Shown here: in pieces, positions 11,154 to 63,084 of the stretch
Position numbering within the stretch: the stretch's first letter is position 1
Layout of the letters: each line of letters starts with the position of its first letter
From: an uncultured Gammaproteobacteria bacterium
Lineage (GTDB): Bacteria; Patescibacteriota; Microgenomatia; UBA12405
Assembly: GCA_964544275.1 (NCBI GenBank)
Contig: CAZIZX010000002.1
Coordinates: 96,100 to 160,099, forward strand
DNA: 64,000 nt
Direction: 5' to 3'
Translations under genes and position numbers: made by a program
Notes under the pieces: generated by a model
What the model was told of the DNA's origin: nothing
Seen by the model: only the letters and a program-made list of their open reading frames with translations
The model's database searches: none

Positions 11154-13430
11154 TTACTCGATGCTGGTACGGCGACTATCGGTTAGAGGGGTAATGTTTT
11201 TTGTTTGAGGTGGTTTTGGAGTTAGTTTTGGTGTTGAATTATTGGGAGAAAGTGAATTTTGTTTTGGTTTGCCCCAACGTTGGCGGGAGATTTGGATAAG
11301 TTTTTGGCGGGCCTGGTTTTTGCAGGAAAGAGGTGGCAGGGTGACGGCATAAAACGGATTAGTGGTTTCAGAGTCGATTGAAAGTTTGTTGATAACTTGA
11401 TAGCGGCCGATTTTGACTAAGTCTTCGGGTGGAAATTGTGGTCCAAATTCTTTGCTTAAGATAAAGGCGTCCTGGTTGCCGACAACGAAAGAGACCATGG
11501 AGCCGACGTTGCCGAAAATAGCGTCCTGAATGGGGCGTTCAAGCTGGGCCATGTATTGATTGGCAACTATCAAATTTAATTTAAATTTGCGGGCTTCGGA
11601 GAGGATTTTGATAAACGAGGTGGTGGCGAAATTTTGAAATTCGTCAACATACAGGTAGAAATCGGACCTGGCCTCGGCTTCCTGGAAAACCCGGTTCATA
11701 GCTGAAAGTTGGATTTGGGTAATTAACATGGCACCAAGAAGAGCGGAGTTGTCTTCGCCTAATTTGCCGGTAGACAGATCGGCAATAAGAATTTTTTTCT
11801 CGTCCATAATTTGCTGGATATTGATTCTGGACTTAGGATGATTGATGGTGTTTCGGATGTTGCTGGAGGCAATAAACTGACCGACTTTGTTTAAAATGGG
11901 GGCAATAGCTTCGTTTTGGAATTTGGGATCCATACGGTTGAATTCATTGATCCAGAAATTTTTGAGAGTTTGGTTTCGGAGTTTGTTGATTACTTTGTCT
12001 CGGAAATTTTTGTTGGTGAGGATTTCAACGATGTCGACCAGGGTGGTATCGGGAGTGTTGACCAAAGTTAAGACGGCGTTTCTTAAAATGTGTTCAAGTC
12101 GGGGGCCCCAAGAGACTTCACCGTAGATTTTTTTGAAAATGGAGATAACGCCTGAAGCGACAAGTTCTTTTTGAGATTCATTTTGGGCTTCGAGAACATT
12201 GAGGGGATAGACGTATTCAGGATCAGCAGGATTGAAATAACAACAATCGTTAATACGATGAGAAGGTATGTAGTCAAGGATGTTATTGCATAAATCGCCG
12301 TGAGGATCGATAACAGCAACTCCACGGCCTTTGCGAATGTCGTCAATGGCCATGTTGGAAATTAAAGTAGTCTTGCCGGTACCGGACTTGCCGATAATAT
12401 ACATATGGCGACGGCGGTCTTCGCCTTGTTTGATGCCAAAGATGGAATCTTTGTTTCGAAACTCAGTTTTGGCAAAAAAGGTTATTTCTTTTTTTTGTTC
12501 TTCGGTAGTATCGTCGGCGACAGGAAGGTTTTCGGGTGGGTCGGAAAACAAATTTTTGCCCCAGGCGATGTTGGGCAGTTTGGTAAGTTTATTGGGAAAG
12601 TGCCAGAGAGCGGAGACTTCTTCGGTGTTGAGAATTTGGGATTTGAGTTTGGTAGAAATTTTACGATTTATGATGCAGTCGGGGAGTTTGTTGCGATTAA
12701 AAAGGTTAGGAGTAAAGGTCTTGATGGAGTTACCGCGGGGAGAGGTAAAGGCTCCGAAAGAGGAGGAAACTGAAGCAATCAGGCTAGGATTGTTAGAAGC
12801 GAGATTGATTTGAGCCAGGATACCGGGGAATTGAATTTTCTGTTCAAATATTGAACGGTCGGGATGAGCTTGGCGTAAGCCTTTTTCTTTGTCAATGACA
12901 ATACCGTTTTGGATAATATCCATTATTGAACTTTGCCAGTTTTTGGAGGCAGGACCGAGGATTATTTGATAGACAAAAAAGTCAGTAGTGCTATTTGATC
13001 GGGAAAGGGGGGCTAGGACGGAAACAAGAGGATCGGTATCGCGGAAATCACGGGCGGTTTTGAGGGGATAATTGTAGGATTTGGAGAGTCCGATTTGGGA
13101 GAAGTTGAGTAACTTGGGATTCTCCAGATCGGTAAAATAGTCCAGGGTATCTTTGGTGATGGCAGAAGGATATTGGGCTAGGATTTGGGATCGGACATAT
13201 TCCATGTTGTCGGTTGGCGCGACGACATAGAAATGAATTTGACCGTGACTAAGTACAATCTCCAGGCTGGCGATGGTCTTTCTTTTACCGCTAAGGCGGT
13301 CAATAAGAGAGGTGGAGCCGGATTGGGAGAAGTTACTTAAAAGTGAGGACATGGCTTCGAGGGTAAATTCGTTTTCTTGAGGGAGGCGGATTTCCAGTAT
13401 TGACAGGTTATTTTTGACGGTGTGCGCCAT
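11154..13430 (-). CDS. VirD4/TraG/TraD-like coupling-type ATPase (FtsK-HerA superfamily), soluble
   Basis: Walker A IIGKSGTGKTT followed about 20 aa later by DPHGD, and Walker B YLYVDEFQNF. No TM segments. Long N-terminal non-ATPase region. Confidence 0.55.
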   Translation of the reverse strand: MAHTVKNNLSILEIRLPQENEFTLEAMSSLLSNFSQSGSTSLIDRLSGKRKTIASLEIVLSHGQIHFYVVAPTDNMEYVRSQILAQYPSAITKDTLDYFTDLENPKLLNFSQIGLSKSYNYPLKTARDFRDTDPLVSVLAPLSRSNSTTDFFVYQIILGPASKNWQSSIMDIIQNGIVIDKEKGLRQAHPDRSIFEQKIQFPGILAQINLASNNPSLIASVSSSFGAFTSPRGNSIKTFTPNLFNRNKLPDCIINRKISTKLKSQILNTEEVSALWHFPNKLTKLPNIAWGKNLFSDPPENLPVADDTTEEQKKEITFFAKTEFRNKDSIFGIKQGEDRRRHMYIIGKSGTGKTTLISNMAIDDIRKGRGVAVIDPHGDLCNNILDYIPSHRINDCCYFNPADPEYVYPLNVLEAQNESQKELVASGVISIFKKIYGEVSWGPRLEHILRNAVLTLVNTPDTTLVDIVEILTNKNFRDKVINKLRNQTLKNFWINEFNRMDPKFQNEAIAPILNKVGQFIASSNIRNTINHPKSRINIQQIMDEKKILIADLSTGKLGEDNSALLGAMLITQIQLSAMNRVFQEAEARSDFYLYVDEFQNFATTSFIKILSEARKFKLNLIVANQYMAQLERPIQDAIFGNVGSMVSFVVGNQDAFILSKEFGPQFPPEDLVKIGRYQVINKLSIDSETTNPFYAVTLPPLSCKNQARQKLIQISRQRWGKPKQNSLSPNNSTPKLTPKPPQTKNITPLTDSRRTSIE

Positions 13431-18239: not shown

Positions 18240-18335
18240 TTTTCAGGCTATTTTCATTTTTCTTTGTTGACGGGGGGTTTTAAAGGTGTTTTACTAGTTA
18301 TATTAGCTATTGTTTGCTTGATAATTAGTAAAAAA

Positions 18336-20204
18336 ATGGAAAAGAAGTTGAGGAGATTCAGGAAAAGTTTAGGCTTAGCCCAGATTCCCTTGATCATTGG
18401 TTTGCTGGTAATGGCAGTGGCGATTCCGGTGGCAACCAGGTTAGTAGAACAGAATCAGGATGTGAGGAATCGGGCGGCGAGTGACTGGATTTGTCAGGAG
18501 TCACAGTGTAAAGCAAATTGTGAAGCGCCTTGTACAACTCTACGAGTTTTTGATTCTAATACGGATGTTGGTAGATGTTCTAACGTGAGTAATACAAAAT
18601 CAATAAAGATACATTGTTCAAATACGAGTCCGCCTAAGCCGATTGCTACGGTAGGGCCACAACCATCACCCGCGCCCCACCCGGCTACTCCCATCCCGAC
18701 TCAGGGGACAGTTACACCGACAACCAAACCGACAGCGACTGTGACGACCAAGCCTACAGCAACAGCTACAACCAAACCGGCGGCTACCAGTGTTCCACAG
18801 CCAACGGCAAAGCCAACTTCAGCGCCTAGTGGCGGTACAACTTGCGCATCGAAGGGATTAAAAACATGTCAGGAAGCTTATTCTACCGATCAGGGGTGTT
18901 CGGGAGGTCAGGTTAAAGAATGTGTAAAGTATGGTTGTAATTCGACAGGTCAAGGGGGATCGGGTTGTCCTTTTGACAAAAATGAAAATGGTACTTCTTC
19001 TTGCGGTTCTTGCTTTACTCCTTCAGGCGGGGGTGGTGGGAGTAGCGGTGGTAGTGGGTATCATTCTTGTCCGTCTTCGGACGGTAATCCGAATAAGCAA
19101 GCTTGTTGTGATAGTAGTGGTAATTATGTTGATTGGTGGTTGTGCGGAGGAGCTGGGGATGGTGGTGGAGGACAAACTTTGACATCGTTTAATGGGGTGG
19201 TGGTAGACGAGACGGGAGCGAGATGGGTACCAGGGAATGATGATTGTTCGGCAAAGAAAGGAAGTGTTTCTATTAGTTCGTCTAAGGGGAATGTTAAGTG
19301 GTTGGGTCAAGGGACTCCTGATGCACGTTTTGATGTTACTGGGGTGCCTTTGTCGGAGGTGACGGTGGTGCTGAATCCTCCCGGAGGATGCGGCTACACT
19401 TGTGATAAGTGGAGGATTACTGATGTTGGGGATAATTTGAAATCTTGGAAGGTTGTTGCTGAAGGGAGCGGTTGCACTGTGAAACTTACGCCTTATAAGA
19501 AGGAATATAGGTCCGGTATAACCTTTTTTATGAAAAAAGTTACACCAACCCCTATGGTACCTCCCCGGTTTAATGTAACAATTGAAGGGCCGACAGAAGT
19601 AGTAAGGGGTGAGACGGCGACGTTTATTGCCAGATCGCAAAGTACGGATGTAAAATTAACCAATATTAAATTATATTGGGGTGATAAGGGGGTTGTGGAT
19701 AGTTTATCCGGTTCGATTAATCCATGGGCATTATTTAAAGAATGCAGCGGTAGTAATGTTACTAGTTGTCAGGGAAATTTTCCGACGGACCGTTTTGACG
19801 GGGAATATTATATTGTCGTTAATGCTTCGACTGGTAGCAACGTTCATTGCAGTGGCAATCCTACCTGCCGGAGTTATCCCTGTAGCGGATTTTATGATTG
19901 TGGAACGGGAGATAATATGGTTTTATCATTAAGTGTAGCGCCAACTAGTACGCCTGCATTAGCTCCGACGGCGATGGCTACACCAAAGCCAACAGCTGGA
20001 GTGACTGGTGTTCCGACGGGGACACCGACATTATGTGAAAAAGCCTTAAATGTTAGGCTGGAAGGCTGGAAAACAGAATATGTAGCAAACAGAGGAAGAA
20101 GAGTTTCAGGGACTTGGAATGCTGACGTCAACAGGGATGGTTATGTTGACATAGTGGATCGTTCAATCATTCTAGAATGCTTGATTAAAAACGGTATTAT
20201 GTAA
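18336..20204 (+). CDS. secreted Cys-rich protein with P/T-rich linker, Gly/Ser-rich segment and a C-terminal dockerin-like module
   Basis: N-terminal signal/anchor. TTKPTAT tandem repeats. C-terminal DVNRDGYVDIVDRSIILECLIKNG fits the dockerin Ca-loop pattern DxNxDGxVDxxD. The ORF opens at 18264. Confidence 0.5.
   Translation: MEKKLRRFRKSLGLAQIPLIIGLLVMAVAIPVATRLVEQNQDVRNRAASDWICQESQCKANCEAPCTTLRVFDSNTDVGRCSNVSNTKSIKIHCSNTSPPKPIATVGPQPSPAPHPATPIPTQGTVTPTTKPTATVTTKPTATATTKPAATSVPQPTAKPTSAPSGGTTCASKGLKTCQEAYSTDQGCSGGQVKECVKYGCNSTGQGGSGCPFDKNENGTSSCGSCFTPSGGGGGSSGGSGYHSCPSSDGNPNKQACCDSSGNYVDWWLCGGAGDGGGGQTLTSFNGVVVDETGARWVPGNDDCSAKKGSVSISSSKGNVKWLGQGTPDARFDVTGVPLSEVTVVLNPPGGCGYTCDKWRITDVGDNLKSWKVVAEGSGCTVKLTPYKKEYRSGITFFMKKVTPTPMVPPRFNVTIEGPTEVVRGETATFIARSQSTDVKLTNIKLYWGDKGVVDSLSGSINPWALFKECSGSNVTSCQGNFPTDRFDGEYYIVVNASTGSNVHCSGNPTCRSYPCSGFYDCGTGDNMVLSLSVAPTSTPALAPTAMATPKPTAGVTGVPTGTPTLCEKALNVRLEGWKTEYVANRGRRVSGTWNADVNRDGYVDIVDRSIILECLIKNGIM
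18723..18794 (+). repeat. 3 x 24-nt tandem repeat encoding a TTKPTATx linker
   Basis: The three units are ACCAAACCGACAGCGACTGTGACG, ACCAAGCCTACAGCAACAGCTACA and ACCAAACCGGCGGCTACCAGTGTT. Confidence 0.7.
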
Positions 20205-20217
20205 ATAGGGGAAAACA

Positions 20218-21414
20218 ATGAAAAACAAAACAACAATTTTGGTGATGTTGATACTGGCTGTTGCTTTGGTAGCGGTAATGGCAGTGATAAGCAGTCGGCA
20301 GGATTTGCGAAGAAGTGCCCATTATGCCAAGGGAAGTTTGTATTTAACTCCGACAGATAATGAGGTGAGGGTGGGGGATGATATTAATTTAATTTTAAAA
20401 GCTGTTCCCGGCCCAGATAGTCCGAAAATCCAAAATGTTCAGGCTTTTATCTGTTATAACAAAAGTATTTTGACGTTGGGTGATGATACAGTGGATGCTT
20501 CGGGAAATTATGTTAATGATGGTAGCTTGGCAAATATTAGGGTGATTAATAAAAACGTGTTTTTGGAAGAGCCGATAGTTTTTTTTGAGGATATTGCCGC
20601 TAAAAGATGCTTGAATTTGACAGTGGTTTCCAATAGAGCGTCAGAATTAACCAGTGAGGTGGTTGATGTGGCTTCAATTAAGTTTACAGCAATAGGTGAA
20701 GGAAACGGGGCGGTGGAGATCGTAAAAGCGGATTCGGTAATGTCGGGTTATATAGCCGATAATCTTGATAAAAGCATTGAAATTACAAACGTGGAAAATG
20801 CTAATTATTTGGTAAGGGCAGCACAGGAAGAGCCGCCAGTCGGGGAAGTTCCTTGGTTGAATTTCAAAATGGCCTTTATGGGAGTGAACAGCGAGTCATC
20901 TTGTGCAGTTAATTGGCCGATGACGTTGACAGTTTTGGGAGGTGGAGTGACCCGAGTGTACAGCAATGTTAAGGGTACAGTAGTAAGTGGAACTGAGGGT
21001 CCGGTGGTGTATAACGTAAGTTTGCCGTTGACTGGTTTTAATCAGACAGAGAAGGTGGCAGTGCTAATTAAGGGACCAAAACATCTTCAGGTAAAATATG
21101 CGGTTGATGGACAAAAGGGCTTTTACGGTGCTGCGGGAGGGGAATTGACATTGGCCAAAGACAAGGCAGCAAGTAAAGTTTACGATTTTACAGGTTATCC
21201 TTTGTTGGCGGGCGATGTGACGGGTAAAAATGGAATCCAGGATGGGTTAATTAATGGATTGGATTTTCTTTTCGTCAGAGATAAAGCCATAGCTAGGGCA
21301 AGGGATTTGCAGAATATGGACATGGCTGATTTAGATGGAAATTGTGTTCATAATTCGCTTGATATTACTTGGTTAATGCAATCACTTGCTGAAAGGCAAG
21401 AGCAAATGAATTAA
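20218..21414 (+). CDS. secreted protein with a cohesin-like beta-sandwich module and a C-terminal dockerin-like module
   Basis: N-terminal signal anchor. Cohesin-like segment (LYLTPTDNEVRVGDDINLILKAVPG...IQNVQAFICYNKSILTL). C-terminal dockerin-like ADLDGNCVHNSLDITWLMQSL. Confidence 0.4.
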   Translation: MKNKTTILVMLILAVALVAVMAVISSRQDLRRSAHYAKGSLYLTPTDNEVRVGDDINLILKAVPGPDSPKIQNVQAFICYNKSILTLGDDTVDASGNYVNDGSLANIRVINKNVFLEEPIVFFEDIAAKRCLNLTVVSNRASELTSEVVDVASIKFTAIGEGNGAVEIVKADSVMSGYIADNLDKSIEITNVENANYLVRAAQEEPPVGEVPWLNFKMAFMGVNSESSCAVNWPMTLTVLGGGVTRVYSNVKGTVVSGTEGPVVYNVSLPLTGFNQTEKVAVLIKGPKHLQVKYAVDGQKGFYGAAGGELTLAKDKAASKVYDFTGYPLLAGDVTGKNGIQDGLINGLDFLFVRDKAIARARDLQNMDMADLDGNCVHNSLDITWLMQSLAERQEQMN

Positions 21415-21429
21415 TATTAAAGGAGAAAA

Positions 21430-22038
21430 ATGATAAACAGTGAATTTGGAAAAACATTATTACCATTAGTTTCGGTGGTGGTTATTTTGCAGAGCGTTGT
21501 TTTGGTGAATAGTATTCGGGATAAAAGAAATATTGGGGTGCAGACATTGAGAAACGATGTAGACACTACTGTGGCAAGGGTAAGCGAGGCGAAAGTGTTC
21601 GATATGGTATTTGGTGTAGATTCAAAATCGATGGTTGTCGGTAAAAAATATGCGATTGACTTGAGTTTGCTGAGCAAGGAGCAAAGTAACGTTGGGTCAG
21701 TTGAAATTTATGTAAAATATGATCCAAGCGCTTTTGAGGTGAGTAATTTAAGTTATGATGGCAAATTACAAAAGCCAGATGTTTTGATTGCAGGGGAAAA
21801 GAAGGGGTTAGTGGTGGCAAATTATTATTCTCTAAATCCGGCCGGGTTTGCTTTTAATGAGGCAGAACACTATAGTCTAGTCATGTTTGATGTTAAGCCG
21901 AAGAAGGAAGGAAGCTTTGATTTTGAAATTAGTACTGGTAATGCCGGTGATGGTTCTGCTACCATGATTTTAGACAATAATACAAAGAAGGAATTGCTCT
22001 ACTCGAGCAATAAATTAACTGTTAATGTAACTAAGTAA
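21430..22038 (+). CDS. secreted protein with a cohesin-like module
   Basis: Signal anchor. Cohesin-like hallmark segment (GSVEIYVKYDPSAFEVSNLSYDG). Confidence 0.35.
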   Translation: MINSEFGKTLLPLVSVVVILQSVVLVNSIRDKRNIGVQTLRNDVDTTVARVSEAKVFDMVFGVDSKSMVVGKKYAIDLSLLSKEQSNVGSVEIYVKYDPSAFEVSNLSYDGKLQKPDVLIAGEKKGLVVANYYSLNPAGFAFNEAEHYSLVMFDVKPKKEGSFDFEISTGNAGDGSATMILDNNTKKELLYSSNKLTVNVTK

Positions 22039-22730
22039 TGAAGTATAAAAAAATTATAATTATAGGGTTAATAGTAATGGGAATGTTGGTTTCGGCCAGA
22101 GGGAGGGTGGCGCAGGCTGCGCCTCATTTTACGTTGTCACCGGCGACATACTCGGTTTCTGTGGGCAGTACTTTTGTGGTTGATCTGGGAGCCGATTCGG
22201 AGACTCAAAGTATTATTGCTATGGATGTAGTGGGTACTTTTGATCCAGTTAAGTTAGAGGTGGTATCAGTTGAGAAGAATAATACGACTAACTTTAATTT
22301 TGTGTTTGATACGACAACCCCAATTATACAAAATACCAACGGGAGGTTTGAGGTAACCTTGAGTCCGAGTAGTACCAGTGTTTATGACGCTCAGGTAGTG
22401 AAAGGAAGTTTGTTGAGGGTTAGGTTTAAAGCTAAAGCTGCTGGTGTGGCGAGTGTTAATTTGTCTTGTCAGGCTGGTTCGGTAACTGATACCAATATGT
22501 TTAATCAGAATTCAGAAGATGTAGTTAGCTGCGCTGCCAATCAAAGTGGTTCGTTTACACTGACTGCAGTGGGTGGTGATGGCGATGTCGTGAGTGATAC
22601 AACTACGGTGGCGACTACGGCCGCGCCGACGAGCGAGTTGCCGCAGACTGGTGGTATTGCTTCGACGATAGGATTGGTGTTGTTCGGGACTATCAGTGTA
22701 TTAGGCGCTCTTATGCTGAGGTTTTTATGA
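22038..22730 (+). CDS. cell-wall-anchored (LPxTG) protein with a cohesin-like module
   Basis: Signal peptide. Cohesin-like segment (VSVGSTFVVDLGADSETQSIIAMDVVGTFDPVKLEVVSVEK). C-terminal LPQTGG followed by a hydrophobic stretch and a charged tail, the classic sortase sorting signal. Confidence 0.45.
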   Translation: MKYKKIIIIGLIVMGMLVSARGRVAQAAPHFTLSPATYSVSVGSTFVVDLGADSETQSIIAMDVVGTFDPVKLEVVSVEKNNTTNFNFVFDTTTPIIQNTNGRFEVTLSPSSTSVYDAQVVKGSLLRVRFKAKAAGVASVNLSCQAGSVTDTNMFNQNSEDVVSCAANQSGSFTLTAVGGDGDVVSDTTTVATTAAPTSELPQTGGIASTIGLVLFGTISVLGALMLRFL

Positions 22731-23467
22731 AGGGAAGGGTGAATGCCAAAACTATCATTGTTTTGATAATTATGCTTTTGGTGGTGGTGTTGGGTGTTTT
22801 GGGAGCAAAAACGGTTCAAACATACTTGAGCGGTGCAACTGAAGATGTACTGCCCAGAAATGTAGTACCAACATCGAGTGAGGATGGTAGAAGTGTAGTT
22901 ATTTCCTGGATGTCGGACAAAGAATCTATGGGGGTGGTAGAGTATGGAACATCTCCGGCGTCTTTATTACTTCGGGCAATAGAGACGGGTCAAGTGACAA
23001 GCCACAAGGTAACTTTGACGCCGCTTAAACCGGGAACAGTTTATTATTTTCGGATAAAGATTGGCGAGGAGATATTTGATAACAGTGGTATACCCTATTC
23101 GGTTAAGACTAATGAGGATAAAGGAGTTGGAGTGGAAACAGAAGTAGAGACTCCAACGATAGAGTTAAAGCCGACGAGTGCGCCGGCGGGAAGCGGGGGA
23201 GATACTGAGGTGATAAGCAGCACATGCAACAGACAAACAGACTATAACGGTGATGGTGTAGTTAATGCGCTGGATCACATCCAGTGCATGAAAGGAGGGA
23301 CAGAAGGTGTTGTATCCGTGACTCCAACTCCGGCGGGAACGACACCGGTGATTCCATCCGAGGCAAGTGCAGCCAGTGAAGGTGAATGCAAGGCGGGGGT
23401 TGATTATGACGAAAACGGAGTGGTGAACAGCTTGGACATGATCAAGTGTTTACAAAATAAGAGATAA
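22727..23467 (+). CDS. secreted protein with an FN3/PAP-N-like domain and two dockerin-like repeats
   Basis: Signal anchor. FN3-like segment (VISWMSDKE...GTVYYFRIKIG). DYNGDGVVNALDHIQCMKG and DYDENGVVNSLDMIKCLQNK fit DxNxDGxVNxLD. Confidence 0.45.
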   Translation: MKGRVNAKTIIVLIIMLLVVVLGVLGAKTVQTYLSGATEDVLPRNVVPTSSEDGRSVVISWMSDKESMGVVEYGTSPASLLLRAIETGQVTSHKVTLTPLKPGTVYYFRIKIGEEIFDNSGIPYSVKTNEDKGVGVETEVETPTIELKPTSAPAGSGGDTEVISSTCNRQTDYNGDGVVNALDHIQCMKGGTEGVVSVTPTPAGTTPVIPSEASAASEGECKAGVDYDENGVVNSLDMIKCLQNKR

Positions 23468-44271: not shown

Positions 44272-45207
44272 ATGGAAAATGATTTAAGAGTTCTTGTTAG
44301 AAGATTTTTGGAATATCTGGAAGTGGAAAGAAACTGCTCGAAATTAACAATCAGGAATTATGAGCACTATCTTGATGTATTACTAAATTATTTGTCAGAG
44401 GGAAAAGAAGAAAAGGTTTTGACGATTTTTGATGTGAACGTTGAGAGTGTGAGGAAGTTTCGATTATATTTGAGCCGGCAGAAAGGAGTCAAGGGAGAAA
44501 TGAAACCGGTAACTCAGGGGTATTATATTATTGCTCTAAGGTCGTTGCTGAAGTGGTTGGTGAAGAATGATTATGTGGTTTTGCAGCCGGAAAAGTTGGA
44601 AGTACCAAAGAGTAAAGATCATTCATTAAAGTTTTTGGACGATAGTCAGATGGACAGGCTTTTGGGACAGCCGTTGTCGTCAACGATTAATGGCCTGCGG
44701 GATAAGGTGATATTGGAATTATTGTTTTCTACGGGCTTGAGGGTGTCGGAGTTGGTGTCCTTGGATCGGGATCAGGTAGATTTAGCGACGCGTGAGTTTG
44801 GGGTTGTGGGCAAGGGTGGTAGGTCGCGAGTGGTATTTATTTCGAAAAGAGCAGCTGATTACATGGATAAATACTTAAAAAACCGAAGGGATCACTTCAG
44901 ACCGCTGTTTATTCGGTATTCGGGTAAAAGAGATGTGGTCGTCAGTGACCAAGGTATGAGGTTGACAGTAAGATCGGTGCAGAGATTGGTCAAAAAATAT
45001 GTTAGGCAGGCTCGCCTACCGGTTGAGGCCACACCCCATACTTTGAGGCATTCGATGGCGACTGATTTGTTGAGGGCCGGAGCCGATTTGAGATCGGTGC
45101 AGGAAATATTGGGACACAAAAATATTGCCACCACTCAAATTTATACCCACGTGACAGATGCCCGGCTGAGGGAAATTCATGAAAAATTTCATAAAGGTAA
45201 TAAATAA
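44272..45207 (+). CDS. XerC/XerD-like tyrosine site-specific recombinase
   Basis: Catalytic residues in context: R (GLRVSEL), HxxR (HTLRHS) and Y (TTQIYTHV). N-terminal SAM-like core-binding domain. Confidence 0.8.
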   Translation: MENDLRVLVRRFLEYLEVERNCSKLTIRNYEHYLDVLLNYLSEGKEEKVLTIFDVNVESVRKFRLYLSRQKGVKGEMKPVTQGYYIIALRSLLKWLVKNDYVVLQPEKLEVPKSKDHSLKFLDDSQMDRLLGQPLSSTINGLRDKVILELLFSTGLRVSELVSLDRDQVDLATREFGVVGKGGRSRVVFISKRAADYMDKYLKNRRDHFRPLFIRYSGKRDVVVSDQGMRLTVRSVQRLVKKYVRQARLPVEATPHTLRHSMATDLLRAGADLRSVQEILGHKNIATTQIYTHVTDARLREIHEKFHKGNK

Positions 45208-50974: not shown

Positions 50975-51952
50975 TTAGTTGCAAGCAGCGCCGGTTTGGG
51001 CAACGGCTTGAGCTTCGGGTACTGAGTCAAGTGTGGTGTTGCACTCTCTGGGAGATTTTTTGAAGGCAGAGCAAACAGCTTCCTTGATGGTATTGGGTGA
51101 TCGGTATTGACTTTGTTGAATAGTTTTTTTACCTACTTTGAGAGAGCCGGTGCCATCTTGGGTGTAGGCTTCCTGAGGTGGGAAGTTAACGCCGTTGACC
51201 AGGACTGTGGGCGAGGCGGTGACCTGTTTGGCGGTGGTGGCGGCGATTTCTGCTTCAATCAAGTCAATTGTTTGCTCATTGAAACAGGTAGTAATCTGAT
51301 TGACGTCAAGTCCGGATTTCTGGGCCTGGTCTTGCCAGCAGGTATCGGCATTTTGGTCGTTACAGTTTAGGTTGACGTTGTCGACAAAATTCCACCACAT
51401 TTTTTTGTCTTGGGCTAGGTTATAGGCGCAAATTTCACGGACGTTTTGATTAGCTTCTACCCGACCGTGCAAAGAGGAGTAATAAACACCATTTTCGGCT
51501 TTAATGTAAGCACTTTCGTTGGTGCAGGTTTTTTTGCTGTCTTCGATGGTTTTCTTGCAGGTAGCTTCATCCTGGAAATAACCGTTTTGGACATAAACAG
51601 AGCAAAGAGAAGGATCGCCAACCCGTTGAGGACCGCAATAGCTGGCAAGACCACCTTCAATTTTGTCGAAAATGTAGCGAGGACGGATATTGGCTTTGTC
51701 GCCAAGAAGGTCAGCCACTGGTCTGATAACATCTTCGATTTGATTACCATAAGGACAAAAGCTCATGACGTAAAATTCCAACTCCGGAGTCTCGGACTTT
51801 TCGACAGCGAAGACGTTTTTGGCACTGAGGGTGTCACCCTGCAATTTTGATCTGGTGAAGGTTACTCCAGAATAAAAAGAAGTGGCAAAAAACAGGACAA
51901 TGAATAATATAGCGGCCGGGGTGGGTACTTTCAAATATTTTTTGGTTTTCAT
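50975..51952 (-). CDS. secreted Cys-rich thioredoxin-fold (DsbA-like) protein with monothiol CPYG site
   Basis: Signal anchor. SFCPYGNQ where CxxC is expected, and SPTVLVNG resembling the cis-Pro loop. About 16 Cys. Confidence 0.35.
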   Translation of the reverse strand: MKTKKYLKVPTPAAILFIVLFFATSFYSGVTFTRSKLQGDTLSAKNVFAVEKSETPELEFYVMSFCPYGNQIEDVIRPVADLLGDKANIRPRYIFDKIEGGLASYCGPQRVGDPSLCSVYVQNGYFQDEATCKKTIEDSKKTCTNESAYIKAENGVYYSSLHGRVEANQNVREICAYNLAQDKKMWWNFVDNVNLNCNDQNADTCWQDQAQKSGLDVNQITTCFNEQTIDLIEAEIAATTAKQVTASPTVLVNGVNFPPQEAYTQDGTGSLKVGKKTIQQSQYRSPNTIKEAVCSAFKKSPRECNTTLDSVPEAQAVAQTGAACN

Positions 51953-59004: not shown

Positions 59005-60744
59005 ATGAATGATACTGCCCAAAAAAGGTACAAGAACTTAACGGAGGTGTTGAAGGGCAAAGGTTTGATAGACGAAGAAAAGGCCAAGGAGATCCATTTA
59101 AGGCAGTTGAAGACGGGTGAAACGGAAGAAGAAATCATTAAGTCTTTGAGAGTAGTTACCGACGGAGAGTTTGTCCAAGCAAAGGCAGATTTACTGCGGA
59201 TCCCTTATGTTGATCTGGAGGCAATCGGGTTCTCGCCTGAAGCTTTGGCACTGGTTCCGGAAGGTGTAGCCACAAAATACAAGGTTTTTCCTTATAAACT
59301 GGATGCAAAGACGAAGACTATTTATGTGGCTATGGCTAATCCGTTGGATTTGGAGACGGTAGAATTTATCGAGAAAAAAACCAGTCTTAAGGTAGCGACC
59401 GCGATTTCGACAGAAAAACAGATAATGTCGTTTATTCGGGAGAAATATGAAAGAGAAAAAGGAATAACTTCTGAGGTGACCAAGGCTTTGGACGAGCAAA
59501 AGAAAGAAGAAAAGATAATCAAGGAAACTCAAAGAAAAGTTTCTTCAGAGGCACCAGTGGCCAAAATTGTAGAAACGATATTGGAATACGCAGTCAAATC
59601 CAGAGCTTCCGATGTCCATATCGAGCCGCAGGAGGACAATGTCCGGGTAAGGTACCGGATTGACGGAATATTGCAGGAAAAATATTTATTACCTCGTAAT
59701 GTCCAAGAGGCGGTGGTGTCGAGAATCAAGATTTTGGCCGATTTGAAAATTGATGAAAAAAGAGTACCTCAGGATGGCAGGTTTTTCTTCTCATCAGACG
59801 GCAACGATGTTGATTTGCGTATTTCTACTTTGCCGGCAACTTATGGTGAAAAGGTGGTAATGCGGTTGCTGAAGAAGTCACAGAAGGTACCAACCTTACC
59901 GGAGTTGGGATTGAGAGGTCTGGCTTTGAAAAATTTATCAAATAGTATTTTGAGGCCGCATGGAATTATTATTGTCTGCGGGCCGACCGGTTCAGGTAAG
60001 ACGACTACTTTATATTCGATATTGGACATCGTATCGACAACCAAGGTGAACGTGGTGACGATTGAGGATCCGGTAGAGTACCAAATGAAAGGGGTAAACC
60101 AGGTCCAGGTCAATGTCCAGGCCGGTTTAAGTTTCGCTTCGGCTTTGAGGTCTTTTTTGAGGCAGGATCCGGATGTTATTATGGTGGGCGAGGTTCGGGA
60201 TGCGGAGACAGCCGAGTTAGCAGTAAATGCCGCCTTGACCGGCCACTTAGTTTTCTCTACCTTGCACACGAACGATGCTGCCGGTGTGCCACCGAGACTG
60301 TTGGATATGGGGGTGGAGCCTTTTTTGCTGGTTTCCTCGTTAAACTGCGTGGTGGGACAGAGGGTATTGCGTCGGGTATGTCCCAATTGTGTTTCTCAGG
60401 AGGAAGCGTCGGCCGATGTTGAGGCAGAGATGAAGGTAACTTTGGGCCCGATTTACGACATGATTGAAGACAAATGGAAAAAGGAGGGCAAAAAAATCTT
60501 GTTGCCCAAGGTTGTGGGTTGTGAAAAGTGTAATAACTCAGGTTATTTTGGCAGGATTGCTATTTACGAAGTTATGCCGGTGACGGAAAAAATTAGTAAA
60601 CTGATAATTGAGAAAGCAGCAGCATCAGCGGTACAGAGGTTGGCTATGGAGGAAGGGATGCTGACAATGAAACAAGACGGATACGTTAAAGTATTAGAGG
60701 GGGTGACGACGATGGAGGAAGTCGTTCGGGTAGCCCAATATTAA
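59005..60744 (+). CDS. pilB: type IV pilus assembly ATPase PilB (GspE family)
   Basis: N-terminal GSPII_N domain, Walker A GPTGSGKTTT, Asp and His boxes, and a tetracysteine motif (CPNC...C..C). Confidence 0.9.
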   Translation: MNDTAQKRYKNLTEVLKGKGLIDEEKAKEIHLRQLKTGETEEEIIKSLRVVTDGEFVQAKADLLRIPYVDLEAIGFSPEALALVPEGVATKYKVFPYKLDAKTKTIYVAMANPLDLETVEFIEKKTSLKVATAISTEKQIMSFIREKYEREKGITSEVTKALDEQKKEEKIIKETQRKVSSEAPVAKIVETILEYAVKSRASDVHIEPQEDNVRVRYRIDGILQEKYLLPRNVQEAVVSRIKILADLKIDEKRVPQDGRFFFSSDGNDVDLRISTLPATYGEKVVMRLLKKSQKVPTLPELGLRGLALKNLSNSILRPHGIIIVCGPTGSGKTTTLYSILDIVSTTKVNVVTIEDPVEYQMKGVNQVQVNVQAGLSFASALRSFLRQDPDVIMVGEVRDAETAELAVNAALTGHLVFSTLHTNDAAGVPPRLLDMGVEPFLLVSSLNCVVGQRVLRRVCPNCVSQEEASADVEAEMKVTLGPIYDMIEDKWKKEGKKILLPKVVGCEKCNNSGYFGRIAIYEVMPVTEKISKLIIEKAAASAVQRLAMEEGMLTMKQDGYVKVLEGVTTMEEVVRVAQY

Positions 60745-60753
60745 TTAAAATAT

Positions 60754-61827
60754 ATGAACACAAAAATAAGAGAACTGATCAAACTGGCAGTAGCAAACAA
60801 GGCGTCGGATATTCATCTGACTGGCGGCGATGTTCCAAAAATCAGGGTTAACGGGGAATTAAAGGAAGTGCCGAGTTTTGGTGTGGCGGGTAATGCCCAG
60901 GAAATGGAAGGAATGATTTTCTCGATGTTGTCGCAGGAACAGAAAAATAAAGTGATTGAGGAGAGAGAGTTTGATTTGTCGGTGGCAGTGGAAGAGACAA
61001 GGTTGAGGGCTAATGTTTATTATCAGATGGGAAAGCTGTCATGTGCATTGAGGTTGGTGGCGGGAGAAATCCCAAGTTTTGAGCAATTGAATCTGCCCAA
61101 GAATTTCGTTTCGTTTGCCAGTTTGAAACAGGGATTTGTTCTGGTTACCGGTCCGACCGGGCACGGGAAATCTACTACCGTGGCTTCGATGTTGAATGAA
61201 ATAAATAATACCCGAAACTGTCATCTGGTGACGATAGAAGACCCGATTGAATACGTGATCAAACCGAAAAAAGCCCTGATCTCTCAAAGAGAGTTGGGTT
61301 CGGACACATTATCGTTTGATATGTCTTTGAGGTCTTGTTTGAGGCAGGATCCAAATGTGGTATTTGTAGGTGAGATGAGAGACCTGGAGACAATTTCGTC
61401 GGCTTTGACGGTGGCAGAGACGGGCCATTTAGTCTTCTCTACCTTGCACACCAATTCTGCTGCCCAGACTATTGACAGGATTATTGATGTGTTTCCCGAC
61501 GGTGTCAAAGGTCAAGTGAGAGTGCAGTTGGCTTCGGTGATTACGGCAGTTATTTCACAAAGATTATTACCTCGATTAAGTGGCGGGTTAATACCGGCAT
61601 TTGAAATGATGTTTGCCAGTGGTGCGGTTAAAAATGCTATTAGAGAGGGAAAAACCCACATGCTGGACAACATAATTCAAACCAGCGCTGATGTGGGGAT
61701 GATGAATCTGGAGACTTATCTGGCGACTTTGGTGAAACAGGGCGAGGTGAGCGAGGAGGTGGCAATGGATTATTGTTTGCGGCCGTCAGAATTACAAAGT
61801 AAGTTAAGAAGTGTAAGGATAAAATGA
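60754..61827 (+). CDS. pilT: twitching motility / retraction ATPase PilT
   Basis: Walker A GPTGHGKSTT, and the PilT-type core lacking the N1 domain. Confidence 0.85.
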   Translation: MNTKIRELIKLAVANKASDIHLTGGDVPKIRVNGELKEVPSFGVAGNAQEMEGMIFSMLSQEQKNKVIEEREFDLSVAVEETRLRANVYYQMGKLSCALRLVAGEIPSFEQLNLPKNFVSFASLKQGFVLVTGPTGHGKSTTVASMLNEINNTRNCHLVTIEDPIEYVIKPKKALISQRELGSDTLSFDMSLRSCLRQDPNVVFVGEMRDLETISSALTVAETGHLVFSTLHTNSAAQTIDRIIDVFPDGVKGQVRVQLASVITAVISQRLLPRLSGGLIPAFEMMFASGAVKNAIREGKTHMLDNIIQTSADVGMMNLETYLATLVKQGEVSEEVAMDYCLRPSELQSKLRSVRIK

Positions 61828-63038
61828 CAAAATATTCTTTTCGGGCAAAAGACTGGAATGGTAAAACTGTAAAGGGCGTGCTGGATGTGACCAGCAAAAA
61901 GGATGTTTTGGAGTCGGTCAAAAGCAGTGGTCTGGTGCCTTTGTTTGTGGCGGAGAAGAAAACAGGATTTTTGGACGAGATGAACAAGAAGGTCCTGGGA
62001 AAAGCGAACCTGAAGAGGATTACAGGGTTTACGAGGCAGTTGTCAACGATGATGACGGCCGGATTGCCCTTAACCGATGCGTTGTCGATGTTGAAAAACC
62101 AGATGGAGGAGAGCAGTCAGTTGTATGAGATTGTCGACGATGCTCTAAATACGGTTCGGGGTGGACATTCGTTGGGAAGCGCTCTGGAGAGATACCGGGG
62201 AGTATTCGGGGAGGCTTATGTGGCATCAATTAATGCCGGTGAAGAAGGAGGGGTGTTGGAGGAGGTATTGGCCAAGCTGGCGGTTGGACTGGAAAATGAG
62301 AGCGAGTTTCAGGGAAAGGTGAAAGGGGCGATGGTTTATCCGGCAATTGTGGTGACGGGAATGATTGCGGTGGCGATTTTGATGATGGTAGTGGTAATTC
62401 CGAAGTTGATGAGTCTGTACGATGATTTTGGGACGGCGGAGTTGCCGACGGCAACGAGAGTCCTGATGTCGATTTCCGGTGCCGCAGCCAAATTCTGGTT
62501 TTTGATTCCACTGGGGTTTTTTGGGGTGTTTTCGGCTCTGAGAACGGCCTATCAAAATAAAGAAATGAAGTTAAAACTGGACGGTTATAAGTTCAAGATC
62601 CCGATTGTTGGTGATTTGATTCGGAAAACGGTAATGGCCAATACTTCCAGGACCCTGTCGATGTTGTTGTCGGCTGGTATTTCTTTGGTTGAGGCGTTGA
62701 GGATAGTTTCCAATGTAGCTGGCAATGAGTTGTATTACAGGGCTTACAACAGAATCGCCGAAAGAGTCCAAAAAGGCTTTGGGATTGCTAACTCATTTGA
62801 TGAAGCGGGTGTTTTTCCTCCGATAGTTAATCAGATGGTGGAAACGGGTGAAGCCACCGGTAAACTGGACGAAGTGCTGATGAGGGTTTCGGATTATTTT
62901 TCGACGGAAGCGGAGCAGTCGGTAAAAGCGTTGACTTCGGCTATGGAACCTTTGATTATGATTGTTTTGGGTATCGGGGTGGCTTTTTTGGTAATTGCGG
63001 TGATAATGCCGATTTATAACTTGACATCGTCATTTTAG
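61824..63038 (+). CDS. pilC: type IV pilus inner-membrane platform protein PilC (GspF family)
   Basis: Two GspF repeats and 3 TM segments. Confidence 0.85.
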   Translation: MTKYSFRAKDWNGKTVKGVLDVTSKKDVLESVKSSGLVPLFVAEKKTGFLDEMNKKVLGKANLKRITGFTRQLSTMMTAGLPLTDALSMLKNQMEESSQLYEIVDDALNTVRGGHSLGSALERYRGVFGEAYVASINAGEEGGVLEEVLAKLAVGLENESEFQGKVKGAMVYPAIVVTGMIAVAILMMVVVIPKLMSLYDDFGTAELPTATRVLMSISGAAAKFWFLIPLGFFGVFSALRTAYQNKEMKLKLDGYKFKIPIVGDLIRKTVMANTSRTLSMLLSAGISLVEALRIVSNVAGNELYYRAYNRIAERVQKGFGIANSFDEAGVFPPIVNQMVETGEATGKLDEVLMRVSDYFSTEAEQSVKALTSAMEPLIMIVLGIGVAFLVIAVIMPIYNLTSSF

Positions 63039-63084
63039 TAGTCAATAATGATTGTTAACAAGCAATTAATTGTTAAATAAATAG

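What the first reader, a model, noticed from the sequence alone, without database searches (positions are those of the whole stretch)
20100..23467. Dockerin-like repeats share an invariant Cys four residues after the Ca loop (I/M-x-C-L/M), atypical for classical dockerins
All well-formed dockerin-like segments are followed by a hydrophobic-x-Cys motif at the same spacing: DIVDRSIILECLIK, LDHIQCMKG, LDMIKCLQNK. Classical clostridial dockerins have no conserved Cys there. A lineage-specific variant could use a disulfide or thiol for partner locking. Protein 18264-20204 has a single repeat rather than the canonical duplicated pair.
Basis: seen in the sequence. Interest (0 to 1): 0.5.

Follow-up and report, generated by a model that had tools for sequence, protein, structure and literature searches.

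The report
Disulfide-stapled single-repeat dockerin-like tags
In a conserved cell-surface gene cluster of tiny "candidate phyla" bacteria, each calcium-binding docking repeat of one protein carries its own invariant pair of cysteines, most likely an internal disulfide staple, which makes it a new variant of the dockerin modules bacteria use to assemble surface protein complexes.

Summary
The Cys four residues after the Ca loop (loop position 16) exists only in the two repeats of the last protein, P5 (22727-23467). There it is invariant in 120 protein clusters and about 65 species genomes. Each repeat is therefore C-x4-DYNxDGxVNSLD-xIx-C. Cys counts are always even and repeat number varies from 1 to 4, which points to one intra-repeat disulfide rather than thiol locking of a partner. 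P1's Cys sits at position 19, in a different dockerin type whose first repeat is degenerate, not absent. P2's dockerin has neither Cys.

The operon encodes three cohesin-like modules and three dockerin-like types, and is syntenic across Microgenomates. Structure prediction folds P2's C-terminus as a canonical dockerin. P5's repeats come out as two separate loop-helix units on a disordered linker. The same stapled unit occurs singly at the C-terminus of Cys-rich proteins encoded in the same operon elsewhere.

Best reading: autonomous, disulfide-stapled single-repeat docking tags. This is a new variant of a known kind, closest to Ruminococcus flavefaciens single-repeat dockerins and GC-type dockerins. 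Cohesin binding and the disulfide itself are inferred, not shown.

The parts
18264..20204 (+). P1: 646-aa secreted or anchored Cys-rich protein (31 Cys). The likely true start is M25 at nt 18336. It has the N-terminal motif GLAQIPL..TRLVEQNQDVRNRA.
   Evidence: ORF; Cys list; N-terminal motif; syntenic orthologs
20022..20201 (+). P1 C-terminal 'type C' dockerin-like module. The first repeat is degenerate (20031-20084; Ca ligands lost, Cys591 and the helix Trp kept). The second repeat has an intact loop DVNRDGYVDIVD (20124-20159) and Cys639 at loop position 19 (20178-20180).
   Evidence: Alignment A3 with orthologs; coordinates; Pfam Dockerin_1 only 12.7 bits, below the cut-off
20218..21414 (+). 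P2: 398-aa adaptor-like protein made of signal/anchor, cohesin-like module, middle domain and dockerin.
   Evidence: ORF; homologs (some carry precomputed PF00963 or PF00404); synteny
20320..20817 (+). P2 N-terminal cohesin-like module (residues about 35-200).
   Evidence: Local hhalign of the ortholog profile against the P4 cohesin profile: probability 97.4%, E 1.2e-11
21184..21411 (+). P2 C-terminal 'type B' canonical two-repeat dockerin. The first loop carries a 5-7 residue insertion (GDVTGKNGIQDGLINGLD, 21211-21264). The second loop is DLDGNCVHNSLD (21328-21363) with an invariant Cys at loop position 6. There is no Cys at position 16.
   Evidence: Alignments A5/A6; AF2 pLDDT 83.5, pTM 0.73; the top 21 Foldseek PDB hits are all dockerins
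21430..22038 (+). P3: 202-aa N-terminally anchored cohesin-like protein with no Cys.
   Evidence: Pfam Cohesin 17 bits, sub-threshold; hhalign against P4 89% and against the P2 N-terminus 92%; stop overlaps the P4 start (TAATG)
22038..22730 (+). P4: 230-aa cohesin with a C-terminal LPQTG sortase signal (22638-22652), a hydrophobic tail and two conserved Cys (144, 165).
   Evidence: Pfam Cohesin 32.1 bits against cut-off 24.1; Gram_pos_anchor 19.8 against 20; an LPxTG-like signal (LP[QRKAE]TG, once LPSAG) in all 40 orthologs listed; ATGA overlap with P5
22727..23467 (+). P5: 246-aa protein with a conserved N-terminal transmembrane segment (22751-22807), an FN3 / purple-acid-phosphatase-N-like domain (22853-23110), a Pro/Thr-rich linker and two stapled repeats. 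The whole protein contains exactly four Cys.
   Evidence: Pfam Pur_ac_phosph_N 39.8 bits, Dockerin_1 23.5 against 22.9; 432 homologs; Cys list
23225..23287 (+). P5 stapled repeat 1: C167-NRQT-DYNGDGVVNALD-HIQ-C187 (Cys at -5 and +16).
   Evidence: AF2 local pLDDT 75-81 with one short helix
23288..23386 (+). Variable Pro/Thr/Ser-rich linker between the two repeats. In orthologs, 18-50 residues separate D12 of repeat 1 from D1 of repeat 2.
   Evidence: length range; AF2 pLDDT below 50
23387..23449 (+). P5 stapled repeat 2: C221-KAGV-DYDENGVVNSLD-MIK-C241. The protein ends five residues later.
   Evidence: AF2 local pLDDT 85-88 with one short helix

Best explanation
The region is a conserved five-gene cell-surface assembly operon of Microgenomates (Patescibacteria/CPR). 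It encodes three cohesin-like modules: the P2 N-terminus, P3, and the sortase-anchored P4. It also encodes three distinct dockerin-like module types, each with its own cysteine pattern. Each P5 repeat is a roughly 21-25 residue unit made of a dockerin-type Ca2+ loop and one short helix, bracketed by two conserved cysteines (about -5 and +16). The cysteines most likely form an intra-repeat disulfide. This would replace the hydrophobic packing that normally holds two dockerin repeats together. As a result, each unit is an autonomous, covalently stapled single-repeat module strung on a flexible Pro/Thr linker. The units most likely act as Ca2+-dependent docking tags for one of the operon's cohesins. 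Either the two units sit side by side on one cohesin, as seen for single-repeat dockerins of Ruminococcus flavefaciens, or they bind separately to two cohesins. In both cases membrane-anchored P5, and Cys-rich cargo proteins carrying one such tag, would be tethered to the wall-anchored scaffold. Shown: the sequence pattern, its conservation, its modularity, the synteny and the cohesin/dockerin homologies. Inferred: the disulfide, the autonomy of the units in three dimensions, and cohesin binding.
For: Cys pairing:
- Cys16 is present in 120/120 clusters in both repeats. Cys(-5) is present in 119/120 and 113/120.
- In 65 complete orthologs, all 110 units have Cys16 plus an upstream Cys (83 at -5, the rest at -3..-7 or -15..-19). 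The Cys count of the C-terminal region is 2, 4 or 10, never odd except in one contig-truncated case.
- Window P5 has exactly four Cys, all in the repeats.
- When the first Ca loop is deleted (L035, L044, L045, L047), both Cys are kept (C-xKGxNTMDYIN-C).

Autonomy of the units:
- Copy number varies: one unit in L053 and L056, more than two in L062, and a single EF-hand-like unit C(-17)...C16 in about 12 genomes.
- The spacing between D12 of repeat 1 and D1 of repeat 2 is 18-50 residues and the sequence between the repeats is Pro/Thr-rich.
- AF2 gives confident local units (pLDDT 75-88, one helix each), a disordered linker, pTM 0.30 and no dockerin fold match.
- The same pipeline at the same alignment depth folds P2's C-terminus with pTM 0.73, and its top 21 PDB hits are dockerins.

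Dockerin ancestry of the loop:
- Pfam Dockerin_1 scores 23.5 against a cut-off of 22.9.
- The profile of the unit hits type I dockerins in the PDB (2Y3N_B 5e-5, 1OHZ_B 4e-4) over the loop columns only.

Docking-tag behaviour:
- The same unit occurs singly at or near the C-terminus of unrelated Cys-rich secreted proteins encoded directly downstream of P5 orthologs (L011 twice, L016, L085/P0192).
- The operon always carries cohesins: P4 scores 32.1 bits on Pfam Cohesin; hhalign gives 97% for the P2 N-terminus and 89-92% for P3.
- P3-P4-P5 are translationally coupled.
- P2-P3-P4-P5 order and spacing are conserved in all loci with enough flank.

Precedents:
- Single-repeat dockerins bind cohesin, two copies mimicking a full dockerin (PMC12270676).
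- SPARC EF-hand 2 has Cys at -1 and +16 (1SRA_A sequence). That these form a disulfide is from memory (Hohenester 1996).
Against: - No coordinates were available, so the S-S distance in the model could not be measured. The disulfide is inferred from pairing statistics only.
- These organisms often live in anoxic, reducing habitats. No clear DsbA/VKOR was identified in the window, only an atypical thioredoxin-fold protein with a CPYG motif.
- No binding data or complex model exist, and which cohesin is the partner is unknown.
- AF2's failure to pack the two repeats could reflect the variable linker rather than true independence.
- The helix after the loop is only about 8-9 residues. This is shorter than the cohesin-binding helix of known dockerins, so the interface may differ or be absent.
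Confidence: 0.5

Rival explanations
1. One reading: the Cys after the loop is a free thiol, or forms an intermolecular disulfide, that covalently locks the dockerin to its cohesin partner.
For: The Cys is invariant and lies in the helix that contacts cohesin in classical dockerins.
Against: Every unit has its own second Cys in cis, and Cys counts are always even. Position 16 is the buried hydrophobic position (93% F/L/M/V/W/I/Y in 234 generic loops), not the contact positions 10/11 (PMC12270676). P3 has no Cys; the even Cys counts of P4 (2) and P2 (4) leave no unpaired Cys.
Confidence: 0.06
2. P5 carries an ordinary two-repeat dockerin whose halves still pack into one domain despite a long linker. 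The cysteines merely add stability.
For: P5 passes the Pfam Dockerin_1 threshold. Most orthologs have exactly two repeats (46 of 65). Two single-repeat dockerins can pair on a cohesin (PMC12270676).
Against: AF2 pTM is 0.30 with a disordered linker, against 0.73 for the P2 control. There is no dockerin fold hit. The spacing between the two Ca loops varies from 18 to 50 residues, with helix breakers (Gly/Pro) at positions 20-21. Orthologs with one unit or with more than two units exist, and single units occur on other proteins.
Confidence: 0.15
3. The units are extracellular Ca2+-binding, disulfide-stabilised structural or ligand-binding modules, for example binding cell wall, S-layer or host surface. 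They have nothing to do with the neighbouring cohesins.
For: Cohesin binding is untested. The post-loop helix is short. A subgroup looks more like an EF-hand, with an entering segment CxxxEFxEKFG. Extracellular EF-hands with a Cys at +16 exist (SPARC).
Against: The units are strictly co-encoded and translationally coupled with cohesins across about 75 genomes. The unit behaves as a portable C-terminal tag on different cargo proteins within the same operon. The loop profile matches dockerins, not EF-hand proteins, in the PDB.
Confidence: 0.2
4. The four cysteines of the two repeats together ligate a metal ion (a Zn(Cys)4-type site) that holds the repeats together.
For: There are four Cys in most orthologs (50 of 65). 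Many of these organisms live in anoxic habitats where extracellular disulfides are less favoured (general knowledge).
Against: Thirteen orthologs have only two Cys and one unit, and one has ten. Single units with two Cys occur on other proteins. The offset of the upstream Cys varies (-3 to -19), unlike metal knuckles. No conserved His accompanies them.
Confidence: 0.04

Closest known systems
Ruminococcus flavefaciens group-2 'naturally truncated' single-repeat dockerins (Duarte et al. 2025, PMC12270676)
   Same: A single dockerin-type Ca2+ loop plus helix works as a stand-alone module. Two copies can occupy one cohesin antiparallel, mimicking a full dockerin. The family includes a member attached to a cohesin-like adaptor.
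   Different: RfDoc2 is about 40 residues with a second C-terminal helix, and it is stabilised by non-covalent contacts (Phe29). The paper mentions no cysteines. The P5 unit is about 21-25 residues with one short helix, is bracketed by two Cys, and occurs as two tethered copies in one polypeptide. No detectable sequence match beyond the loop.
GC-type dockerin domain (NCBIfam NF041540)
   Same: A dockerin variant with a conserved Cys pair that presumably closes the module covalently. It was found among the weaker hits of the same profile search.
   Different: In the GC type, one Cys precedes the first loop (-3) and the other is the final 'GC' after the second helix. The pair therefore brackets the whole two-repeat domain, which has a short 15-residue inter-repeat segment and Phe at position 16. 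Here each single repeat has its own pair. The window proteins do not hit NF041540.
Classical type I dockerin (Pfam PF00404; e.g. C. thermocellum Xyn10B, PDB 1OHZ)
   Same: The same 12-residue loop D-x-N-x-D-G-x-V-N-x-x-D, and co-occurrence with cohesins. The P2 C-terminus in this operon has this fold.
   Different: Classical dockerins have Leu/Phe at position 16 and Ala at -5, and no Cys. They have two repeats about 22 residues apart forming one three-helix domain. Stabilisation comes from a non-covalent N/C-terminal clasp (PMC3821032).
SPARC/BM-40 extracellular EF-hand 2
   Same: An extracellular Ca2+ loop bracketed by Cys just before the loop and at position +16: C-DLDNDKYIALDE-WAG-C (1SRA_A residues 121-138). 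From memory, these form the C256-C272 disulfide.
   Different: It is a true EF-hand with an entering helix and Glu at position 12, paired with a second EF-hand in a eukaryotic matrix protein. There is no homology claim; it is only a structural precedent for a staple at position 16.

Membership tests
Dockerin type I (Pfam PF00404) | 12-residue Ca2+-binding loop D-x-[DN]-x-[DN]-G-x-[IV]-[DN]-x-x-D followed by a helix | tested here: met
   Both P5 repeats, the P1 second repeat and both P2 repeats have it. The profile of the P5 unit hits PDB type I dockerins over the loop (2Y3N_B E 5e-5).
Dockerin type I (Pfam PF00404) | Score at or above the Pfam gathering threshold (22.9 bits) | tested here: inconclusive
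   P5 scores 23.5 bits (just passes), P2 19.4 (fails) and P1 12.7 (fails). About half of the P5 orthologs carry a precomputed PF00404 hit.
Dockerin type I (Pfam PF00404) | Two repeats about 22 residues apart that pack into one compact three-helix domain | tested here: not met
   For P5: loop-to-loop spacing of 18-50 residues, AF2 pTM 0.30 with a disordered linker, no dockerin fold hit, and copy number 1-4. For P2 (control) the feature is met: pTM 0.73 and the top 21 hits are dockerins.
Dockerin type I (Pfam PF00404) | Hydrophobic core residue at loop position 16 | tested here: not met
   P5 has an invariant Cys there. Generic dockerin loops have F/L/M/V/W/I/Y in 93% and Cys in 2%.
Dockerin type I (Pfam PF00404) | Ca2+-dependent binding to a cognate cohesin | not testable with these tools
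   Only genomic association is available: cohesins lie in the same translationally coupled operon in all related genomes.
GC-type dockerin (NCBIfam NF041540) | Match to the NF041540 model; one Cys before repeat 1 and a terminal Gly-Cys after repeat 2 | tested here: not met
   There is no NCBIfam hit for P1, P2 or P5 at E <= 1, whereas P0159 and P0160 from the same profile search hit it at 1.4e-17 and 2e-8. The Cys pattern differs.
Single-repeat (group 2) dockerins of R. flavefaciens | One Ca2+ repeat forming a helix-loop-helix of about 40 residues with a second C-terminal helix | tested here: not met
   AF2 gives one helix of 9-10 residues per unit. Window P5 ends 5 residues after Cys16 of repeat 2, and Gly/Pro follow at positions 20-21 of repeat 1.
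Single-repeat (group 2) dockerins of R. flavefaciens | Sequence relatedness to group 4/2 dockerins (Gly-Arg at positions 10/11) | tested here: not met
   The P5 units have Ser-Leu (Ala-Leu in window repeat 1) at positions 10/11. No R. flavefaciens chain appears among PDB hits at E <= 10.
Canonical EF-hand | Entering helix, 12-residue loop ending in bidentate Glu12, exiting helix, paired hands | tested here: not met
   Position 12 is an invariant Asp. AF2 shows no entering helix. Only a divergent subgroup has an entering segment CxxxEFxEKFG. EF-hand proteins in the PDB score only E 0.3-2.
Cohesin (Pfam PF00963) | Match to the cohesin model above threshold | tested here: met
   P4 scores 32.1 bits against cut-off 24.1. 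P3 (17 bits) and the P2 N-terminus are sub-threshold or absent in Pfam, but are related to the P4 profile by hhalign (89% and 97.4%).
Sortase-dependent LPXTG surface protein | C-terminal LPXTG, hydrophobic stretch, basic tail | tested here: inconclusive
   P4 has LPQTG plus a hydrophobic tail ending in ...LRFL. Pfam Gram_pos_anchor scores 19.8 against 20, and TIGR01167 scores 14.9 against 15.9. An LPxTG-like signal is present in all 40 orthologs listed (LP[QRKAE]TG, once LPSAG). No sortase gene was seen among the roughly 50 window ORFs scanned.

The most novel reading that the evidence does not exclude
The stapled unit is the smallest self-sufficient cohesin-binding module known: a roughly 21-25 residue single Ca2+ loop-helix made autonomous by one disulfide. 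P5 would use two tethered copies either as a 'split dockerin' on one cohesin or to bridge two different cohesins. This would link the cytoplasmic membrane (P5 anchor) to the cell wall (sortase-anchored P4) in an envelope-organising complex that is universal and syntenic in Microgenomates. That complex would also display Cys-rich cargo proteins, possibly for attachment to host cells.
Probability: 0.3. Interest if true: 0.65.

Novelty: new variant of a known kind. Interest (0 to 1): 0.5.

Why it matters
Cohesin-dockerin pairs are the standard example of modular extracellular protein assembly and are widely used in synthetic biology. It was shown only in 2025 that a single dockerin repeat can be functional. 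A naturally occurring single repeat stabilised by its own disulfide would be a very small, potentially redox- and Ca2+-switchable affinity tag. It would also show a second evolutionary route, covalent stapling per repeat, to the stabilisation that classical dockerins achieve by repeat pairing and N/C-terminal clasps. Biologically, the operon sits in a fixed housekeeping neighbourhood in essentially all Shapirobacteria- and Woesebacteria-type genomes sampled. It therefore probably encodes a core envelope structure of these uncultured, ultra-small bacteria, whose surface biology is almost unknown.

Tried and rejected
- Foldseek of the P5 C-terminal model against the PDB gave only one meaningless hit (E 4.9). 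This is uninformative on its own, so I ran a positive control with P2.
I spent a homolog search on P2 and rebuilt the alignment (A6).
- Single-sequence PDB searches with the P5 C-terminus and with the EF-hand-like variant gave only weak dockerin or calmodulin hits (E 0.05-2).
- NCBIfam has no model for P1, P2, P3 or P5, or for the other stapled-unit proteins.
- Literature searches found no description of this operon or of Cys-stapled repeats: dockerin+cohesin+Patescibacteria, dockerin+'disulfide bond'+'calcium-binding loop' (0 papers), and Microgenomates+dockerin.
- The context of P0250 could not be read because the contig is 1.2 kb with no DNA held.
- I considered a Zn(Cys)4 site and an intermolecular disulfide and rejected both on Cys parity, variable copy number and variable offset.
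- I considered whether the three modules share one Cys motif and rejected it. The positions are -5/+16 (P5), loop position 6 (P2), and loop position 4 or +19 (P1).
- My first regex scans were too strict: they missed P5 repeat 2 at the protein end and the P1-type N-terminal motif. Both were redone.

Full report
**What is in the region**

Coordinates 18264-23467 hold five co-directional genes.
- P1 and P2 are separated by 13 nt, with a Shine-Dalgarno-like AGGGGA before P2.
- P3/P4 overlap as TAATG and P4/P5 overlap as ATGA.
- There is no excess of promoter-like or terminator-like sites inside the region.

The gene contents are as follows (Pfam, local profile-profile comparison).
- P1 (646 aa) is a Cys-rich secreted or anchored protein ending in a dockerin-like segment.
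- P2 (398 aa) has an N-terminal cohesin-like module (97.4% hhalign probability against the P4 ortholog profile), a middle domain and a C-terminal dockerin.
- P3 (202 aa) is an N-terminally anchored cohesin-like protein (89-92%).
- P4 (230 aa) is a cohesin (32.1 bits, cut-off 24.1) with an LPQTG sortase signal.
- P5 (246 aa) has a conserved N-terminal transmembrane segment, an FN3 / purple-acid-phosphatase-N-like domain (39.8 bits), a Pro/Thr linker and two dockerin-like repeats (Dockerin_1 23.5 bits, cut-off 22.9).

The rest of the window is housekeeping: fmt, def, mreB, PBP2, dprA, topA, rpsB, tsf, frr, rseP, yqeY, ybeY, dnaX, recR, cysS, ssb, ctpA, htrA, hisS, dnaB, gyrAB, ligA and type IV pilus genes.

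**Origin and conservation**

The exact P5 protein occurs on two Logan contigs carrying the same operon. P5 has 432 homologs; the named ones are from Candidatus Shapirobacteria, Woesebacteria and 'Patescibacteria group'.

A scan of one genome per species returned 79 loci. In every locus with enough flank, the order P2-P3-P4-P5 and its spacing are the same. The operon always sits between frr/rseP and yqeY-ybeY-dnaX. It is therefore a core, syntenic operon of Microgenomates.

**Checking the observation**

I number each Ca loop D1..D12.

P5:
- P5 repeat 1 is DYNGDGVVNALD-HIQ-C and repeat 2 is DYDENGVVNSLD-MIK-C, so Cys is at position 16 in both.
- Cys16 is present in 120/120 homologous clusters in both repeats.
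- It is present in all 110 units of 65 complete orthologs from different species, at 38-68% identity.
- Neighbouring positions vary freely: mean column identity is 50%, while C167, C187 and C241 are invariant and C221 is at least 90% conserved.
- As a background, I used 234 generic dockerin loops in 103 unrelated proteins recovered by a profile search. There, position 16 is F/L/M/V/W/I/Y in 93% and Cys in 2%.
- In C. thermocellum Xyn10B dockerin, position 16 is Leu.

P1 and P2:
- In P1 the Cys lies at position 19 (DVNRDGYVDIVD-RSIILE-C), not 16.
- That Cys is kept only in the two nearest relatives (L006, L007). Other P1 orthologs end in GDADC-SG...SIWRxEF...ADFDC-NGKVNLND...SIWRxNF, with Cys at loop position 4 of both repeats.
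- The alignment shows that window P1 does have a first repeat. Its Ca ligands have decayed (LCEKALNVRLEGWKTEYV), but the invariant helix Trp and the loop-position-4 Cys remain. 'Single repeat' is therefore wrong.
It has an invariant Cys at loop position 6 of repeat 2 (DLDGNC) in 71 homologs.

The operon thus contains three dockerin-like types with three different Cys patterns, not one shared I/M-x-C-L/M motif.

Each P5 repeat has a second conserved Cys upstream.
- It lies at -5 in 119/120 (repeat 1) and 113/120 (repeat 2) clusters.
- Where it is not at -5, it is at -3, -4, -6 or -7, or at about -15 to -19 in a divergent subgroup. In that subgroup the unit has an EF-hand-like entering segment: C-xxx-EFxEKFG-TSDxxY-DFDDNGxVNTxD-WIx-C.

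The unit is therefore C-x4-D-Y-N-x-D-G-x-V-N-S-L-D-x-I-x-C.

Evidence that the pair belongs to one unit:
- Window P5 has exactly four Cys, all in the repeats.
[quoted passage not shown] The only odd count is a protein cut by a contig end.
- Some orthologs have one unit (L053, L056).
- One ortholog (L062) has extra units with extra Cys pairs.
- Where the first Ca loop has been deleted (L035, L044, L045, L047), both Cys are still there: C-xKGxNTMDYIN-C.

This parity and co-retention is what an intra-unit disulfide predicts. It argues against both a free thiol and a four-Cys metal site spanning two repeats.

**Are the two repeats one dockerin?**

In classical dockerins the second loop starts about 15-22 residues after the first loop ends, and the repeats pack as one three-helix domain. 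In P5 orthologs, 18-50 residues (median 30) separate D12 of repeat 1 from D1 of repeat 2. The sequence between the repeats is Pro/Thr/Ser-rich, and Gly/Pro are common at positions 20-21.

AlphaFold2 on the 92-residue C-terminus, with a 71-sequence alignment, gave two locally confident units (pLDDT 75-88). Each has a single 9-10 residue helix. The linker has pLDDT below 50, and pTM is 0.30. Foldseek found no dockerin.

As a control, the 76-residue P2 C-terminus with an alignment of the same depth gave pLDDT 83.5 and pTM 0.73, with two long helices. Its top 21 PDB matches are all dockerins from cohesin-dockerin complexes: 6KGF_D, 2CCL_B, 4DH2_B, 4FL4, 2VN5 and others, with TM 0.45-0.68.

The same pipeline therefore recognises a canonical dockerin in this operon but treats the P5 repeats as separate units. 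I could not obtain coordinates, so the Cys-Cys distance and the orientation of Cys16 were not measured. That Cys16 points inward is inferred from the hydrophobic character of position 16 in generic dockerins. It also follows from the fact that the cohesin-recognition residues are at positions 10/11 (PMC12270676).

**How widespread is the unit?**

A 30-column profile of the unit was searched against 1.84 billion cluster representatives.
- It gave 272 hits at E <= 1e-3 and 33 at E <= 1e-10.
- Of the 149 new proteins among the 150 listed, only 46 show the stapled pattern. These are the P5 family plus a few other architectures.
- Those other architectures are Cys-rich secreted proteins with one unit at or near the C-terminus: P0153, P0161, P0192, P0224/P0246/P0250 and P0261.
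- Four such genes lie directly downstream of P5 orthologs in the same operon: two in L011, one in L016, and L085/P0192.

The unit is thus rare, lineage-restricted and portable. It behaves like a targeting tag shared by different cargo proteins co-encoded with cohesins.

Many of the weaker profile hits that I inspected are GC-type dockerins (two confirmed against NCBIfam NF041540). These are two-repeat dockerins bracketed by one Cys before repeat 1 and a terminal Gly-Cys. That is a known Cys-containing dockerin variant, but with a whole-domain rather than a per-repeat bracket. The window proteins do not match it.

**Comparison with what is known**

- Dockerins are known to be stabilised by a non-covalent clasp between residues just before the first loop and the C-terminus. 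That paper does not mention cysteines (PMC3821032).
- R. flavefaciens group-2 dockerins contain a single Ca2+ repeat of about 40 residues and still bind CohScaE. Two copies lie antiparallel on one cohesin and mimic a full dockerin. Engineered half-dockerins of other species can also bind. No cysteines are involved (PMC12270676).
- SPARC EF-hand 2 has Cys directly before the loop and at +16. The sequence was verified in 1SRA_A; that the two form a disulfide is from my memory of Hohenester et al. 1996.

The P5 unit combines these ideas: a single dockerin-type repeat made self-sufficient by a covalent per-repeat clasp. Its loop is dockerin-like. A profile search against the PDB hits 2Y3N_B at 5e-5 and 1OHZ_B at 4e-4, over the loop columns only and never the Cys columns. 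However, it fails three defining features of the classical family: paired repeats in one fold, a hydrophobic residue at position 16, and a short inter-repeat segment. I therefore classify it as a new variant of a known kind, not as a plain member.

**Most likely mechanism (confidence about 0.5)**

- Shown: the three cohesin-like modules, the three dockerin-like types, the per-unit Cys pairs, the variable copy number, the tag-like distribution, and the synteny and translational coupling.
- Inferred: each unit folds around Ca2+ and is locked by its own disulfide.
- Inferred: units bind one of the operon's cohesins. P4 is the most economical guess because it is translationally coupled and wall-anchored.
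- Inferred: the two units of membrane-anchored P5 either sit together on one cohesin or bridge two cohesins, tethering membrane, wall scaffold and Cys-rich cargo.

Rivals are scored in the rival section: an ordinary two-repeat dockerin, a cohesin-independent Ca2+ module, partner-locking thiols, and a metal site.

All extracytoplasmic Cys counts in the operon are even: P1 30 after the likely true start, P2 4, P4 2, P5 4 and P3 0. This fits a fully disulfide-bonded surface complex.

**Caveats**

- No experimental or coordinate-level evidence for the disulfide was obtained.
- The partner cohesin is unassigned.
- The organisms are often from anoxic habitats.
- No canonical DsbA/VKOR or sortase gene was seen in this 64-kb window.

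Noticed in passing
window 18336-18480 (P1) and 20218-20330 (P2); also about 56 ORFs in loci L004-L084: Conserved N-terminal signal in P1-like, P2-like and other cargo proteins of these operons: a hydrophobic helix (GLAQIPLLIGLLxMAVAIPVA in the P1 type) followed by [KR]-L-V-Q-x-N-Q-[DE]-x-R-x-x-A. It has no NCBIfam or Pfam model and looks like a lineage-specific sorting or processing signal.
   Followed up: partly
window 20218-21414 (P2 Cys229 at about 20902-20904 and Cys376 at about 21343-21345): P2 has four conserved Cys: two in the cohesin-like module, one in the middle domain (C-A-V-N-W-P) and one at loop position 6 of the second dockerin repeat. This suggests a disulfide tying the dockerin to the preceding domain, reminiscent of X-module-dockerin pairs.
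   Followed up: no
window 20022-20201 and P1 orthologs in L004, L005, L014, L020, L023, L039 and others: In most genomes the P1-type dockerin has Cys at loop position 4 of both repeats. In the window lineage (with L006 and L007), the second loop lost this Cys and gained one at position 19, while the first loop lost its Ca ligands. This may be a relocated disulfide. A Cys4-Cys4 bond is hard to reconcile with a canonical dockerin fold, where the loops lie at opposite ends.
   Followed up: partly
window 50975-51952 (- strand): A 325-aa membrane-anchored, Cys-rich protein with a weak thioredoxin-fold match (VSR_TRX 2.8e-10, GILT, Thioredoxin_4) and a CPYG motif instead of CxxC. It is a possible extracytoplasmic thiol-disulfide factor. 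There is no NCBIfam hit.
   Followed up: partly
window 1-64000: GC skew is very strong and positive everywhere: 0.22-0.50 over the first 46 kb, where most genes are on the + strand, and still 0.16-0.31 from 46 to 64 kb, where most genes are on the - strand. There is no sign change.
   Followed up: no
loci L006, L011, L013, L014, L018, L021 and others, and L009: Many public MAG records carrying this Microgenomates operon are titled 'uncultured Gammaproteobacteria bacterium' (binchicken assemblies). One 7-kb contig is filed under Candidatus Methanoperedens. These are probably mislabelled or misbinned records.
   Followed up: no
window 18264-18335: The P1 ORF as listed starts at a TTG. Orthologs begin near the GLAQIPL motif, so the real start is probably Met25 (nt 18336). 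This removes the odd Cys18.
   Followed up: partly
loci L049, L052, L058, L064, L065, L067, L070, L072-L075, L077, L078: A divergent clade replaces the two stapled repeats of P5 by one (or, in L075 and P0165, two) longer EF-hand-like units with the first Cys about 17 residues upstream. In the same genomes, the P2 dockerin lacks the loop Cys (DINFNG). The whole operon therefore co-diverged.
   Followed up: partly
window 59005-63774, 11154-13430, 44272-45207: Type IV pilus genes are present (PilB-like and PilT-like ATPases, PilC, a prepilin). So are a VirD4/TrwB-like coupling protein and a tyrosine recombinase.
   Followed up: no
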